Assembly (NCBI GenBank): GCA_965227515.1
Contig: CBDDFZ010000001.1
Location: forward strand, 1,344,001-1,408,000
Direction of reading: 5' to 3'
Source: Alphaproteobacteria bacterium
GTDB taxonomy: Bacteria; Pseudomonadota; Alphaproteobacteria; CALKHQ01
DNA: 64,000 nucleotides
Shown here: one piece after another, positions 1-21,325 of the stretch
Position numbering within the stretch: the stretch's first letter is position 1
Layout: the number at the start of each line of letters is the position of its first letter
Translations under genes and position numbers: made by a program
The notes under the pieces: model-generated
Databases searched by the model: none
The model's input: only the letters and a program-made list of their open reading frames with translations
Told to the model about the DNA's origin: nothing

Positions 1-621
1 GCCTTCCCGGTCTTCGAGCGCCTGTTCCAGGAGTTCGGCCTGCCCGATGCGATGCGCTCCGACAACGGCCTGCCATTCGCCAGTCCGAACGGGCTCTACA
101 ACCTCTCCAGGCTCGCGGTCTGGTGGCTGAGGCTGGGGATCGCGATCGAGCGCATCAAACCCGGCCATCCGCAGCAGAACGGCCGCCATGAACGCATGCA
201 CCTGACCCTGAAGAAGGAGACCACCAAGCCGGCCGGCGCCAACATCCTACAGCAGCAGGCCCGCTTCGACGCCTTCGTCGCCGAGTTCAATACCGAGCGC
301 CCGCATGAGGCGCTCGCCATGAAGTGCCCGGCAGAGGTCTACACCCCCTCAGCCAAGCCCTATCGCGGCTTGACCGAGCTCGACTATCCGTTCCACGACC
401 GGGATGTCGTCGTCACCTCATGCGGGCGGCTGTGCCTGCACCGAAAGAAGATCAACATCTCAACCGTCATGGCCGGACAGCGCCTGGGAATCAAAGAGGT
501 CGACGAGGGCATATGGCTCGTCAGCTTCATGCACTACGATCTCGGATACATCGACCTGGAGCAGAAAACACTGCAGACACTCGACAGCCCGTTCGGCACG
601 AGGTTGTCACCCATGTCTTAG
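1..621 (+). CDS. IS481-family transposase, 5'-truncated by window edge
   Basis: RSDNG and PGHPQQNGRHER integrase-core motifs; same protein as the C-terminus of 19998-21206. Confidence 0.93.
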   Translation, partial: AFPVFERLFQEFGLPDAMRSDNGLPFASPNGLYNLSRLAVWWLRLGIAIERIKPGHPQQNGRHERMHLTLKKETTKPAGANILQQQARFDAFVAEFNTERPHEALAMKCPAEVYTPSAKPYRGLTELDYPFHDRDVVVTSCGRLCLHRKKINISTVMAGQRLGIKEVDEGIWLVSFMHYDLGYIDLEQKTLQTLDSPFGTRLSPMS

Positions 622-655
622 GTACAAACTGTTACCTATGTCTCCGGGTCGGACA
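1..655 (+). mobile_element. IS481-family insertion sequence, copy 1 (left part outside window)
   Basis: Appears identical to 20586-21240. Right end ...GTTACCTATGTCTCCGGGTCGGACA with repeated GTYACCYATGTC motifs. Confidence 0.92.
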
Positions 656-665
656 AAAGGCGAGT

Positions 666-739
666 TGGAGCGGGTGAGGGGAATCGAACCCCCGTCTTAA
701 GCTTGGGAAGCTCCTGCTCTACCATTGAGCTACACCCGC
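666..739 (-). tRNA. tRNA-Gly(CCC)
   Basis: Reverse complement GCGGGTGTAGCTCAATGGTAGAGC...TTCCCAA...GGTTCGATTCC...CCCGCTCCA: cloverleaf, anticodon CCC, encoded CCA. Confidence 0.97.
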
Positions 740-19725: not shown

Positions 19726-19944
19726 AAATTTGAAACTTGAAGACGGACATAAATTGGCAGTTAACGCGCTCGACTATTCTGAATCCCCGTCGTGAGTTAT
19801 GCAACCAATAATAGATATGGTCTCCGCGCATCGGTGACGGCAGGCCGGTTTGCATCCGGGGTTTGCATCGGGGCGGCATTCGCGGTCCCGGTGCGCATGT
19901 CACCGGGGTCGACGGACCGAGATCGGATCGGAAATTTTTTTTTT

Positions 19945-21240
19945 TGAGCGGTCGGAGAGATAGGTGACGGATCGTACCGGAGACATGGGTAACACTTTTG
20001 GCCTTTTGGCCGGGGGTGTTGATGCCGTGGAGACGGAGTACGGTTATGGAGGAACGCCTGCGGTTTGTGGCCCGTTTGCTGGAAGGCGAGAGCATGAGCG
20101 CGGTTTGTCGGTCTTTCGGGATATCCCGGAAGACCGGCTACAAGATTTTCAAGCGGTATCAGGCGGAGGGTGTGCATGCGCTGAGCGACCGGTCTCGCCG
20201 CCCGGTGCGCTACGCCAACCAGCTGCCGGCCGCGGTCGAGCGGCTGATCGTCGCGACGAAGAAAGAGAAGCCGCACTGGGGCGCACGCAAGATCCGGGAG
20301 GTGTTGGTGCGCCGTCTTGCCGGCGACGTGCGCATTCCCGCCAGGAGCACGGTGCATGCGGTGCTCGACCGCCACGGCCTGGTCCAGCGCGCCCGGCGCC
20401 GGCGCCACAAGGCGGCGGGCACGCCGCTGTCGACGGCCCATGTCCCCAATGCGCTGTGGTGCACCGACTTCAAGGGCGAGTTCAAGCTCGGCACCGGCCG
20501 CTATTGTTACCCCCTGACGGTGACCGACCAGGCCTCGCGCTTCATCCTGGGCTGCGAAGCCCTTGAGACGACCAAGGAGGCGCATGCCTTCCCGGTCTTC
20601 GAGCGCCTGTTCCAGGAGTTCGGCCTGCCCGATGCGATGCGCTCCGACAACGGCCTGCCATTCGCCAGTCCGAACGGGCTCTACAACCTCTCCAGGCTCG
20701 CGGTCTGGTGGCTGAGGCTGGGGATCGCGATCGAGCGCATCAAACCCGGCCATCCGCAGCAGAACGGCCGCCATGAACGCATGCACCTGACCCTGAAGAA
20801 GGAGACCACCAAGCCGGCCGGCGCCAACATCCTACAGCAGCAGGCCCGCTTCGACGCCTTCGTCGCCGAGTTCAATACCGAGCGCCCGCATGAGGCGCTC
20901 GCCATGAAGTGCCCGGCAGAGGTCTACACCCCCTCAGCCAAGCCCTATCGCGGCTTGACCGAGCTCGACTATCCGTTCCACGACCGGGATGTCGTCGTCA
21001 CCTCATGCGGGCGGCTGTGCCTGCACCGAAAGAAGATCAACATCTCAACCGTCATGGCCGGACAGCGCCTGGGAATCAAAGAGGTCGACGAGGGCATATG
21101 GCTCGTCAGCTTCATGCACTACGATCTCGGATACATCGACCTGGAGCAGAAAACACTGCAGACACTCGACAGCCCGTTCGGCACGAGGTTGTCACCCATG
21201 TCTTAGGTACAAACTGTTACCTATGTCTCCGGGTCGGACA
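19945..21240 (+). mobile_element. IS481-family insertion sequence, copy 2 (complete)
   Basis: Left end TGAGCGGTCGGAGAGATAGGTGAC is imperfectly inverted to right end GTTACCTATGTCTCCGGGTCGGACA; internal repeated GACATRGGTRAC motifs. Confidence 0.9.
19998..21206 (+). CDS. IS481-family transposase
   Basis: MPW...MEERLRFV HTH, WGARKI, WCTDFKG, RSDNG, NGRHER. Likely start at MPW, about 20022. Confidence 0.95.
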   Translation: MAFWPGVLMPWRRSTVMEERLRFVARLLEGESMSAVCRSFGISRKTGYKIFKRYQAEGVHALSDRSRRPVRYANQLPAAVERLIVATKKEKPHWGARKIREVLVRRLAGDVRIPARSTVHAVLDRHGLVQRARRRRHKAAGTPLSTAHVPNALWCTDFKGEFKLGTGRYCYPLTVTDQASRFILGCEALETTKEAHAFPVFERLFQEFGLPDAMRSDNGLPFASPNGLYNLSRLAVWWLRLGIAIERIKPGHPQQNGRHERMHLTLKKETTKPAGANILQQQARFDAFVAEFNTERPHEALAMKCPAEVYTPSAKPYRGLTELDYPFHDRDVVVTSCGRLCLHRKKINISTVMAGQRLGIKEVDEGIWLVSFMHYDLGYIDLEQKTLQTLDSPFGTRLSPMS

Positions 21241-21249
21241 TTTGGAGGG

Positions 21250-21325
21250 TGGTGCCGATGGAGGGACTCGAACCCCCGACCCACGCATTACGAATGCGTT
21301 GCTCTACCGGCTGAGCTACATCGGC
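21250..21325 (-). tRNA. tRNA-Thr(CGT)
   Basis: Reverse complement GCCGATGTAGCTCAGCCGGTAGAGC...TTCGTAA...GGTTCGAGTCC...ATCGGCACCA. Confidence 0.97.

What the first reader, a model, noticed from the sequence alone, without database searches (positions are those of the whole stretch)
601..739. IS481 that appears to target tRNA 3' flanks (site 1: tRNA-Gly)
Seen: the right end (...GTCGGACA, 655) stops 10 bp from the CCA of a convergent tRNA-Gly. The second copy ends 9 bp from the CCA of a different tRNA (Thr) in the same orientation, and the two spacers share no sequence. These are the only two IS481 copies and the only two tRNAs found in 64 kb, and both tRNAs stay intact. Known: integrative elements usually use tyrosine integrases that recombine within tRNA genes, while fixed-distance insertion beside a recognised landmark is typical of Tn7/TnsD and yeast Ty3. 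Inference: this single-gene DDE element has no targeting protein, so its transposase or a host factor may recognise tRNA genes (T-arm sequence, structure or transcription) and insert at a set offset. I do not know of this being characterised for IS481.
Basis: partly seen in the sequence, partly recalled or inferred. Interest (0 to 1): 0.8.

Follow-up and report, generated by a model that had tools for sequence, protein, structure and literature searches.

The report
IS element that targets tRNA tails
A small single-gene jumping element of the IS481 family lands, in one orientation and to within a base or two, about ten bases past the end of transfer-RNA genes, much as the tRNA-seeking mobile elements of yeast and amoebae do.

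Summary
The element is 1296 bp (TGAGCGG...GGACA) with one IS481-family DDE transposase gene and a 3-bp target duplication.

- **This genome:** all 4 identical copies, plus one 205-bp relic, end 9-10 bp from the CCA end of five different convergent tRNA genes. The right end always faces the tRNA.
- **Other genomes:** 54 of 71 evaluable relatives (74-81% identical; Alpha- and Betaproteobacteria) sit 9-11 bp from an intact tRNA, covering 23 anticodons. Most of the other 17 sit at tRNA 3' fragments or T-arm-like boxes at the same offset.
- **Other targets:** the same pattern appears in metagenome contigs, on plasmids (including the tRNA-Arg of S. meliloti pSymB) and at a tmRNA gene.
- **Limits of the trait:** sister clades (47-54% identity and below) and a second IS481-family element in the same genome are not at tRNAs.

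The mechanism is inferred. Most likely the transposase itself reads the double-stranded DNA of the T-arm box and CCA region and inserts 22-24 bp away. Clade-specific residues cluster in its C-terminal beta domain.

Eight literature searches found no description of this behaviour. ISfinder could not be consulted.

The parts
1..655 (+). Last 655 bp of IS copy A, cut by the window start. The full copy is G000:C1:1343360-1344655.
   Evidence: blastn of the IS against the genome; flanks printed; sequence.
1..621 (+). C-terminal 206 codons plus the TAG stop of the copy A transposase gene.
   Evidence: the ORF listing; identical to copy B.
606..655 (+). Right terminal inverted repeat (IRR) of copy A. 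It holds two subterminal ~13-bp repeats (GTCACCCATGTCT and GTTACCTATGTCT) and the tip ...GGACA.
   Evidence: Read; consensus of 79 right ends.
656..665 (.). 10-bp spacer between the IS end and the tRNA. Bases 656-658 (aaa) are the right copy of the 3-bp target duplication; the left copy lies outside the window.
666..739 (-). tRNA-Gly(CCC), intact, with encoded CCA.
   Evidence: ARAGORN; Rfam RF00005, 68.2 bits.
679..691 (-). T-arm box of tRNA-Gly, read on the plus strand as GGGAATCGAACCC. It begins 23 nt after the IS end.
   Evidence: offset distribution.
19942..19944 (.). Left copy of the 3-bp target duplication (ttt) of copy B.
19945..21240 (+). Complete IS copy B, 1296 bp, TGAGCGG...GTCGGACA.
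   Evidence: Limits set by the 4 identical genomic copies.
19945..19994 (+). Left terminal inverted repeat (IRL) with two subterminal repeats (GAGAGATAGGTGAC and GAGACATGGGTAAC).
   Evidence: consensus of 78 left ends.
20022..21206 (+). Transposase gene. The ATG at 20022 gives 394 aa and matches the MPW... start of most homologues. The 386-aa form from the ATG at 20046 was used for all searches and for residue numbering.
   Evidence: Translation; NCBIfam NF033577 IS481 transposase, 232.6 bits against a cut-off of 224; Pfam HTH_28/HTH_32, rve, rve_3; consensus start.
21191..21240 (+). Right terminal inverted repeat (IRR) of copy B. It overlaps the last codons of the transposase gene.
21241..21249 (.). 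9-bp spacer. Bases 21241-21243 (ttt) are the right copy of the target duplication.
21250..21325 (-). tRNA-Thr(CGT), intact, with encoded CCA.
   Evidence: ARAGORN; Rfam RF00005, 72.8 bits.
21263..21275 (-). T-arm box of tRNA-Thr, read on the plus strand as GGGACTCGAACCC. It begins 22 nt after the IS end.
   Evidence: offsets.

Best explanation
This is an active, site-specific clade of the IS481 family. Each element is about 1.3 kb, with ends TG...ACA and two ~13-bp subterminal repeats at each end. It carries one DDE transposase gene (386-394 aa) and makes a 3-bp target duplication.

**Shown**
- New copies go in 9-10 bp (rarely 11) downstream of the encoded CCA end of almost any tRNA gene, and of tmRNA.
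- The right end, which is the 3' end of the transposase gene, always faces the tRNA.
- The tRNA stays intact.

**Inferred**
- The transposase itself reads the double-stranded DNA of the 3' third of the tRNA gene. The conserved T-arm box GGRYTCGAACC, together with the CCA and flanking bases, begins 22-24 bp from the point of strand transfer.
- The transposase cuts the target with a 3-bp stagger at that fixed distance.
- The domain most likely to have acquired this reading is the C-terminal beta domain (aa ~314-373) and tail.
- The benefit to the element would be a harmless landing site that exists in every bacterium, which would fit its spread over Alpha- and Betaproteobacteria and their plasmids.
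For: **Pattern**
- 4 of 4 identical copies plus 1 relic in this genome lie at 9-10 bp.
- 54 of 71 evaluable loci of other genomes lie at 9-11 bp, all convergent, over 23 anticodons and 54 distinct sites.
- In metagenome contigs, 27 of 71 loci of this clade have an intact convergent tRNA 37-47 nt after the stop codon. Of the 56 with a usable flank, 37 have a strong T-arm box at offset 22-24 only, against 2 in a control window.
- Relatives found in related genomes sit at tRNAs, apart from the G012 copy.
- Of 10 plasmid loci examined, 4 lie at an intact tRNA, including the tRNA-Arg(ccg) of S. meliloti 1021 pSymB. Five more lie at a T-arm box 23-25 nt away.
- One locus lies at a tmRNA gene.

**True transposition**
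- An exact 3-bp duplication is present in 35 of 68 loci, against about 1 by chance.
- The four copies here are 100% identical, which points to recent movement.

**Sequence rather than function of the tRNA**
- Of the 17 loci without an ARAGORN tRNA, 6 carry a tRNA 3' fragment with TGG and a T-arm box at the usual offset.
- 6 more carry a degenerate T-arm box at offset 22-24 (single-site p from 2e-5 to 5e-3), five of them without CCA.
- In L119, L121 and L122 the box is kept but the acceptor/CCA part is not, and as I read the sequences the T-stem pairing is not kept either.

**Enough information in the DNA.** A 33-nt matrix running from CCA through the T-arm picks 37 tRNA/tmRNA sites and only 3 others in this 5.5-Mb genome.

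**No helper gene.** The element has one ORF.

**Clade limits**
- 0 of 9 loci of the sister clade (47-54% identical) are at tRNAs.
- The relatives of 36-47% identity examined are not at tRNAs either.
- Nor are the 5 copies of a 38%-identical IS481-family element in the same genome.

**Candidate domain**
- 10 of the 13 clade-specific residues lie in aa 319-385, where about 2 would be expected.
- This region forms an all-beta domain in a confident model with pLDDT 91.6.
- The whole fold matches TnsB, IstA, MuA and retroviral integrases.
Against: - Nothing was tested at the bench. Which molecule recognises the target is inferred.
- The 13-nt T-arm box alone cannot give the specificity. This genome has 672 non-tRNA matches at matrix score 8 or more, against 43 in tRNAs. 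More of the tRNA gene, or something else, must therefore be read.
- The tRNA fragments and relics do not prove that DNA sequence suffices. An island integrating into the tRNA, or decay, after the IS arrived would leave the same picture.
- Four loci keep only TGG plus acceptor-like sequence with no T-arm box (L038, L080, L090, L092). One has neither (L084).
- Loci that do not fit:
  - The G012 copy, with no tRNA and no duplication.
  - L116, at 18 bp.
  - L141 and L176, at about 13 bp.
  - About 15 metagenome loci without a strong box.
- 33 of 68 loci lack an exact duplication.
- Part of the clade-specific C-terminal tail (aa 376-385) is encoded by the right inverted repeat, so its conservation may reflect DNA constraints rather than protein function.
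Confidence: 0.65

Rival explanations
1. Targeting goes through a host factor or through transcription. The transposase is tethered to something that sits on every tRNA gene or nascent pre-tRNA, such as RNA polymerase at the 3' end, a processing enzyme or an R-loop. This would resemble Ty1, Ty3 and the Dictyostelium TRE elements, which use Pol III factors.
For: - All tRNA isoacceptors and a tmRNA gene are used, and these share heavy transcription and processing.
- The T-arm box alone is not specific enough as a DNA motif.
- Eukaryotic tRNA-targeting elements work this way (abstracts of PMC5006619 and PMC5911963 seen in the listing; the details are recalled).
Against: - Insertions at truncated tRNA pieces and at T-arm-box relics that cannot make a tRNA lie at the same offset.
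- Precision is 1-2 bp relative to the box.
- The same behaviour is seen in distant hosts (Alpha- and Betaproteobacteria) and on plasmids.
- A 33-nt DNA matrix is specific enough on its own.
Confidence: 0.2
2. The target is recognised as a structure or through RNA. Either the tRNA gene DNA extrudes a T-arm hairpin or cloverleaf, as single strand or cruciform, or a mature tRNA bound by the transposase pairs with its own gene and guides insertion.
For: - Strict orientation and fixed distance from a sequence that can fold.
- Other IS families use hairpins or guide RNAs (IS110/IS1111 seekRNA and bridge RNA: abstracts of PMC11187229 and PMC11208160 in the listing).
Against: - A 3-bp duplication and a TnsB/IstA/integrase-like fold point to a double-stranded target.
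- In the relic sites L119, L121 and L122 the box sequence is kept but, as I read them, the T-stem complementarity is not.
- Rfam finds nothing inside the element, which is weak evidence against an element-borne RNA.
- A tRNA guide would need full complementarity, which the relic sites lack.
Confidence: 0.08
3. There is no targeting. Either insertion is random and only copies beside tRNAs survive selection, or IS-mediated deletions stop at essential tRNAs, or the IS rides on tRNA-linked islands.
For: tRNA 3' flanks are gene-poor, so insertions there are tolerated. This is general knowledge and comes from no call.
Against: - Selection cannot give a 9-10 bp spacing in a single orientation at 54 distinct sites.
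- Target duplications are present in 35 of 68 loci.
- Left flanks are unrelated between copies.
- Other IS481-family elements in the same genome are not at tRNAs.
Confidence: 0.02

Closest known systems
IS481 family insertion sequences (IS481, IS1002, ISRme5)
   Same: - The transposase passes the NCBIfam IS481 model.
- There is a single ORF.
- The ends are of the TG.../...ACA type. Passages of PMC11406308 and of preprint 10.1101/2022.12.17.520857 say IS481-family ends begin TGT.
   Different: - ISRme5 duplicates 6 nt and uses many sites within a gene, with its own target motif (passages of PMC4803752).
- IS481 itself targeting NCTAGN is recalled, not seen in any call.
- This clade duplicates 3 bp and goes to tRNA gene 3' flanks.
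- A 38%-identical family member in the same genome does not go to tRNAs.
IS1202 family, ISAjo2/ISAba32 group (targets dif/pdif)
   Same: [quoted passage not shown]
- Its transposase is distantly related to those of IS481 and IS3 (passage of the preprint).
   Different: - The landmark is a recombination site bound by host XerC/D, not a tRNA gene.
- It belongs to a different IS family.
Tn7 and Tn7-like elements with TnsD/TniQ, and type V-K, I-B2 and I-D CASTs that use tRNA genes as attachment sites
   Same: - Insertion at a set distance beside a conserved gene, in one orientation, leaving the gene intact.
- tRNA genes are frequent attachment sites (passages of PMC11406308).
- The transposase fold resembles TnsB.
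   Different: - Those elements need a separate targeting protein (TnsD/TniQ) or a crRNA, together with TnsC. As I understand them, each recognises one particular gene.
- Here there is one protein, and at least 23 different tRNA species plus tmRNA are used.
Eukaryotic tRNA-gene-targeting elements: Ty3 and Ty1, Dictyostelium TRE5/TRE3 and DGLT-A, Dada DNA transposons
   Same: - Generic targeting of tRNA genes as safe sites in compact genomes (abstracts of PMC5006619, PMC3706591 and 10.1101/2021.07.27.453949).
- The box likely read here corresponds to the sequence of the eukaryotic B box, the T-arm. That correspondence is recalled.
   Different: - As recalled, the retroelements are tethered by Pol III factors and mostly insert upstream.
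- Dada elements insert inside the RNA genes.
- This element is bacterial, inserts 9-10 bp downstream, and probably reads DNA directly.
Tyrosine-integrase islands and prophages that integrate in tRNA 3' ends
   Same: They use the 3' part of tRNA genes as a landmark.
   Different: - Those elements recombine within the gene at a sequence identical to their own attP.
- Here there is no integrase and no shared core sequence. The element has a DDE transposase, a 3-bp duplication, and a site outside the gene.

Membership tests
IS481 family | DDE transposase matching the family model above its curated cut-off | tested here: met
   NF033577 scores 232.6 bits against a cut-off of 224, covering aa 4-294. 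The IS3 model scores 112.8, below its cut-off of 160.
IS481 family | Single transposase ORF without the programmed frameshift of IS3 (feature recalled) | tested here: met
   One open frame of 386-394 aa spans the element.
IS481 family | Terminal inverted repeats beginning TGT / ending ACA (passages) | tested here: inconclusive
   The right end finishes ...GGACA. The left end begins TGA in this element and TGA, TGC or TGT in relatives.
IS481 family | Target duplication of 4-15 bp, commonly 6 (range recalled from ISfinder; 6 nt for ISRme5 seen) | tested here: not met
   An exact 3-bp duplication occurs in 35 of 68 loci. A 4-bp match occurs in only 4 and a 6-bp match in none. The clade is therefore atypical on this point. 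I still file it in the family because of its transposase.
Tn7-like transposons | TnsB-type transposase together with a TnsC ATPase and a TniQ/TnsD target selector | tested here: not met
   The 1296-bp element has one gene only. The fold likeness to TnsB is a resemblance within the superfamily.
Tyrosine-recombinase integrative elements at tRNA genes | An integrase gene and an attachment core identical to part of the tRNA | tested here: not met
   There are no integrase domains. The spacers are unrelated, and a 3-bp duplication takes the place of a shared core.
IS110/IS1111 (RNA-guided) | DEDD transposase and a non-coding guide RNA | tested here: not met
   The domains are of the rve DDE type. 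No Rfam family matches inside the element.

The most novel reading that the evidence does not exclude
A single 390-aa DDE transposase, with no helper protein, guide RNA or host factor, reads the universally conserved T-arm box and CCA region of tRNA genes as double-stranded DNA. It integrates 22-24 bp from the box, in one orientation. That would make this the first bacterial insertion sequence known to target tRNA genes as a class, and a convergent counterpart of Ty3, TRE and Dada elements. It would also be a compact, host-independent safe-site integration enzyme whose specificity lies in a small C-terminal beta domain.
Probability: 0.5. Interest if true: 0.85.

Novelty: new variant of a known kind. 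Interest (0 to 1): 0.8.

Why it matters
**A gap in what is known of prokaryotes.** Generic targeting of tRNA genes is a textbook strategy of eukaryotic mobile elements. In bacteria, the known cases of insertion at a fixed distance beside a landmark need extra targeting proteins or guide RNAs (Tn7-like elements, CASTs), or use other landmarks (dif for the IS1202 group). A one-gene IS that finds the 3' flank of any tRNA gene to within a base or two would fill that gap.

**A tractable system.** It would give a simple way to study how an integrase-type transposase measures distance from a DNA motif.

**Genome interpretation.** It would explain why these IS copies and their relics mark tRNA loci in many Alpha- and Betaproteobacteria, including the essential tRNA-Arg on S. 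meliloti pSymB.

**Possible tool.** It could serve as a small tool for neutral-site insertion in many bacteria.

**Annotation.** A right-end relic next to a tRNA is a scar of this element, not part of a genomic island.

Tried and rejected
**1. Terminator as the target.** A crude hairpin-plus-T-run scan found a terminator-like site in 1 of 34 reconstructed empty sites and downstream of 3 of 49 tRNAs of this genome. Terminators are not the landmark. I could not say whether the IS separates tRNAs from terminators.

**2. 'Pseudo-end' idea.** The proposal was that the T-arm box mimics the conserved CGTACC box, which lies 29-35 bp from the tips of the IS's own ends.
- The in-register alignment ranks first or second of 31 offsets in four comparisons that are not independent.
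- The match is only CG.ACC.
- Sister clades that do not target tRNAs have the same end architecture.
- I keep it as a weak lead, at about 15%.

**3. Zinc site in the C-terminal domain.** C321 and C325 are invariant in the clade, but H327 and H358 are not. I dropped this idea.

**4. Empty site in close relatives.** The left flank of copy B has no match in G001-G003, so no direct before-and-after comparison was possible.

**5. Repeated hits on one site (pile-ups).**
- In this genome the left flank of copy D is a 61-bp, 74%-identical right-end relic.
- The left flank of copy A carries a 14-nt end-like piece. In both, the new copy starts 1 bp inside the old end.
- Among other genomes only 1 of 67 loci (L024) shows this clearly. 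Pile-ups are real but uncommon.

**6. Reads for circle junctions or empty sites.** The look-up of sequencing runs could not be reached in six tries.

**8. Tree errors.**
- In the tree, the rows labelled G239 and G000_paralog38b were the wrong ORFs of their loci and should be ignored.
- In one search the end of L119 was misplaced by the script. I used my reading instead.

**9. Literature.** Eight searches and passages of six papers found nothing on tRNA targeting by an IS481-family element.

Full report
**What is in the window**

At the left edge of the window an insertion sequence, cut by the window start, ends ...GTCGGACA at 655. Ten unrelated bases follow (656-665), then tRNA-Gly(CCC) on the minus strand at 666-739, with its encoded CCA read as TGG at 666-668.

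A complete second copy lies at 19945-21240. It is followed by nine bases (21241-21249) and tRNA-Thr(CGT) at 21250-21325.

ARAGORN also calls a tRNA-Ala at 51440-51514. Rfam confirms only the Gly and Thr genes in the whole window, and the 51440 stretch reads like coding sequence. I treat that call as false.

**The element**

Comparison of the genomic copies sets the limits at 1296 bp, TGAGCGG...GTCGGACA.
- It has one open frame. The ATG at 20022 gives 394 aa. I used the 386-aa form from 20046 for searches and numbering.
- The protein passes NCBI's IS481 transposase model with 232.6 bits against a cut-off of 224, over aa 4-294.
- It carries HTH_28/HTH_32, rve and rve_3 Pfam domains.
- Each end holds two ~13-bp subterminal repeats.
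- An AlphaFold model built on 72 sequences is confident, with pLDDT 91.6. It shows two N-terminal helical DNA-binding modules, an RNase-H-like core and an all-beta C-terminal domain (aa ~314-373).
- Its nearest solved folds are TnsB of type V-K CASTs, IstA of IS21, MuA and retroviral integrases, with E from 1e-14 to 1e-8.

**The whole genome**

The assembly has 5.52 Mb in 2 contigs and 49 ARAGORN tRNAs. It holds four full copies, 100% identical, and one 205-bp right-end relic.

All five right ends lie 9 or 10 bp from the CCA end of a convergent tRNA: Gly-ccc (10), Thr-cgt (9), Pro-ggg (10), Ser-gct (10) and Thr-tgt (10). No other tRNA flank resembles the IS end.

Each full copy is flanked by a 3-bp direct repeat: aaa, ttt, gat and aat.

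By my arithmetic, the chance of one random insertion falling in such a 3-bp window in the right orientation is about 1.3e-5.

The left flank of copy D is the decayed right end of an older related copy. Copy A has a 14-nt piece of the same kind. In both, the new copy begins 1 bp inside the old end, so the same tRNA was hit twice.

**Other genomes**

The search for related loci picks loci by protein similarity alone. It returned 80 loci at 74-81% identity from many Alphaproteobacteria and some Betaproteobacteria.
- Nine have less than 90 bp of right flank.
- Of the other 71, 54 have an intact convergent tRNA 9 bp (19), 10 bp (33) or 11 bp (2) from the IS end.
- These are 54 distinct sites covering 23 anticodons.
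- The spacer is not conserved. Only TGG and the T-arm box are, as in all tRNAs.
- An exact 3-bp duplication flanks 35 of the 68 loci with both ends, against about 1 by chance. Matches of 4 bp number only 4, and matches of 6 bp number none.

The 17 loci without an ARAGORN tRNA break down as follows.
- Six carry a tRNA 3' fragment with TGG and a strong T-arm box at the usual offset.
- Six carry a degenerate T-arm box at offset 22-24, with single-site p from 2e-5 to 5e-3. Five of these lack TGG.
- Four keep TGG and acceptor-like sequence only.
- One has neither.

**Further samples**

*Genomes of the same class.*
- Relatives of 58-80% identity sit at tRNAs.
  - G042 has 4 of 4 and G271 has 4 of 4, one of these at 18 bp.
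  - Some of these loci overlap the set above.
- Four C-terminal relics sit at a tRNA or a tRNA fragment.
- The TAG-broken copy in G012 has no tRNA and no duplication.

*Metagenome contigs.* Of 80 loci, 71 are nearest to this transposase, at 57-82% identity.
- 27 of the 71 have an intact convergent tRNA 37-47 nt after the stop codon. Many of the rest are cut by contig ends.
- 56 have a usable flank. Of these, 37 have a strong T-arm box at offsets 22 (20), 23 (14) or 24 (3) and nowhere else between 15 and 31. A control window gave 2.
- Of the 19 misses, at least 4 are errors of my end-finding. About 15 have no strong box.
- One locus lies at a tmRNA gene (Rfam 75.7 bits).

*Plasmids.* 81 records hold a relative, and I examined 10.
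- Four lie at an intact tRNA, among them the tRNA-Arg(ccg) of S. meliloti 1021 pSymB.
- Five lie at a T-arm box 23-25 nt away without a complete tRNA.
- One is rearranged by an IS110-family element.

**Limits of the trait**

The following are not at tRNAs.
- Five copies of a 38%-identical IS481-family element in the same genome.
- The 36-47% relatives in G088, G126 and G239.
- All 9 metagenome loci of the sister clade, which are 47-54% identical and have ends ...GGTTGCACA.

In a tree, the tRNA-associated elements form one tight clade on a long stem. Two rows of that tree were wrong ORFs and should be ignored.

ISRme5, a studied family member, duplicates 6 nt and has other targets (passages of PMC4803752).

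**How it most likely works**

*Shown.* Insertion is genuine transposition, site-specific, orientation-specific, independent of tRNA identity and recent.

*Inferred.* The transposase reads double-stranded DNA of the 3' third of the tRNA gene.

For this:
- The element has no other gene.
- Relic sites keep the box bases at the right distance but lack the acceptor/CCA part and, as I read them, the T-stem pairing.
- A 33-nt matrix from CCA through the T-arm is nearly unique to tRNA and tmRNA genes in this genome, with 37 such sites against 3 others.
- 10 of 13 residues that are at least 90% conserved in 29 clade members, and at most 10% present in 60 other relatives, lie in aa 319-385: T319, C321, R323, C325, M357, Y359, N376, P377, F378 and M385. 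About 2 would be expected there.

Against this:
- The 13-nt box alone is far too common, with 672 non-tRNA matches.
- The fragments could have arisen after insertion.
- Part of the C-terminal tail is encoded by the inverted repeat.
- No experiment exists.

A host-factor or transcription-coupled route (about 20%) and a structure- or RNA-based route (about 8%) remain open. Passive explanations are excluded by the spacing, the orientation and the duplications.

**Comparison and novelty**

The element is a member of the IS481 family by its transposase, but atypical in its 3-bp duplication. In behaviour it is closest to the following.
- The IS1202/ISAjo2 group, which sits 5 bp from the XerC site of dif.
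- Tn7-like elements and CASTs that use tRNA genes through TniQ or crRNAs.
- Eukaryotic tRNA-targeting elements.

It differs from all the bacterial cases in needing one gene only and in accepting tRNA genes as a class.

Eight full-text searches and passages read in six papers gave no description of this behaviour. That library holds only open-access papers and bioRxiv preprints, and I opened no supplementary files. ISfinder and TnPedia could not be consulted, so a curator's note there cannot be excluded.

I rate it a new variant of a known kind, with high interest.

Noticed in passing
window 51440-51514: ARAGORN calls a tRNA-Ala(tgc) here. Rfam finds no tRNA at gathering score, and the stretch reads like coding sequence, so it is a probable false positive.
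   Followed up: partly
G000:C1:385035-386117, 409939-411021, 877747-878832, 1657244-1658272, 2802634-2803719 (L013, L011, L015, L017, L016): Five copies of a second IS481-family element, 38% identical at protein level, lie in the same genome. None is within 1.5 kb of a tRNA. Its own target preference was not examined.
   Followed up: partly
L100 (G239:C5), L101 (G126:C54); L129, L131, L134, L145, L153, L167, L195: Sister clades of the transposase have the same two-repeat end architecture but tips ...GGTTGCTCA or ...GGTTGCACA, and they are not at tRNAs. The flanks of L100 and L101 both contain a G-rich ...GGGGGT..ACC stretch. Whether these clades have another specific target is unknown.
   Followed up: no
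L118 = NC_003078.1 1313806-1317912 (S. meliloti 1021 pSymB): A decayed copy, 68% identical and lacking the first 16 codons, sits 10 bp from the tRNA-Arg(ccg) gene of pSymB. A passage of PMC11837538 cites this tRNA-Arg, without naming its anticodon, as one of the essential genes that make pSymB a chromid. The PLSDB gene table shows no annotated feature here.
   Followed up: partly
L120 = NZ_CP099400.1 339573-341533: On a Rhizobium plasmid the IS sits 10 bp from a tRNA-like 3' fragment (TGG plus a perfect T-arm box). The fragment lies between an rtcB gene and a gene for an 'RNA-binding protein'. The Rfam tmRNA model scores only 17.8 bits. It may be the tRNA-like module of a Y-RNA-type gene; that idea is recalled and untested.
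   Followed up: partly
L176 1498-1655: A relative of the IS lies next to the 3' end of a tmRNA gene (Rfam 75.7 bits), with a spacer of about 13 nt.
   Followed up: partly
L038, L080, L084, L092 (Mesorhizobium and Bradyrhizobium): The right flank carries a recurring hairpin that starts like the 3' end of tRNA-Met (TGGTAGCGGGGG...CCGCTAC) but has no T-arm. It may be an attachment-site remnant or a repeat family.
   Followed up: no
G000:C1:407550-407641 (downstream of tRNA-Thr ggt): The flank holds motifs resembling the subterminal repeats of these IS ends (GTGACTATGT..., TGTACCTATGG) about 40-80 nt from the tRNA. The alignment score is only 10 of 60. It may be an old scar or chance.
   Followed up: no
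window 19931-19944: A run of 14 T (11 preceding the duplicated ttt) abuts the left end of copy B, after a GC-rich stretch. It may be the terminator tail of the upstream plus-strand gene.
   Followed up: no
L123 = NZ_CP104145.1 435149-437109: A copy on a Rhizobium sullae plasmid is flanked on both sides by IS110-family transposase genes, and its right end is replaced. This is a nest of insertion sequences.
   Followed up: no
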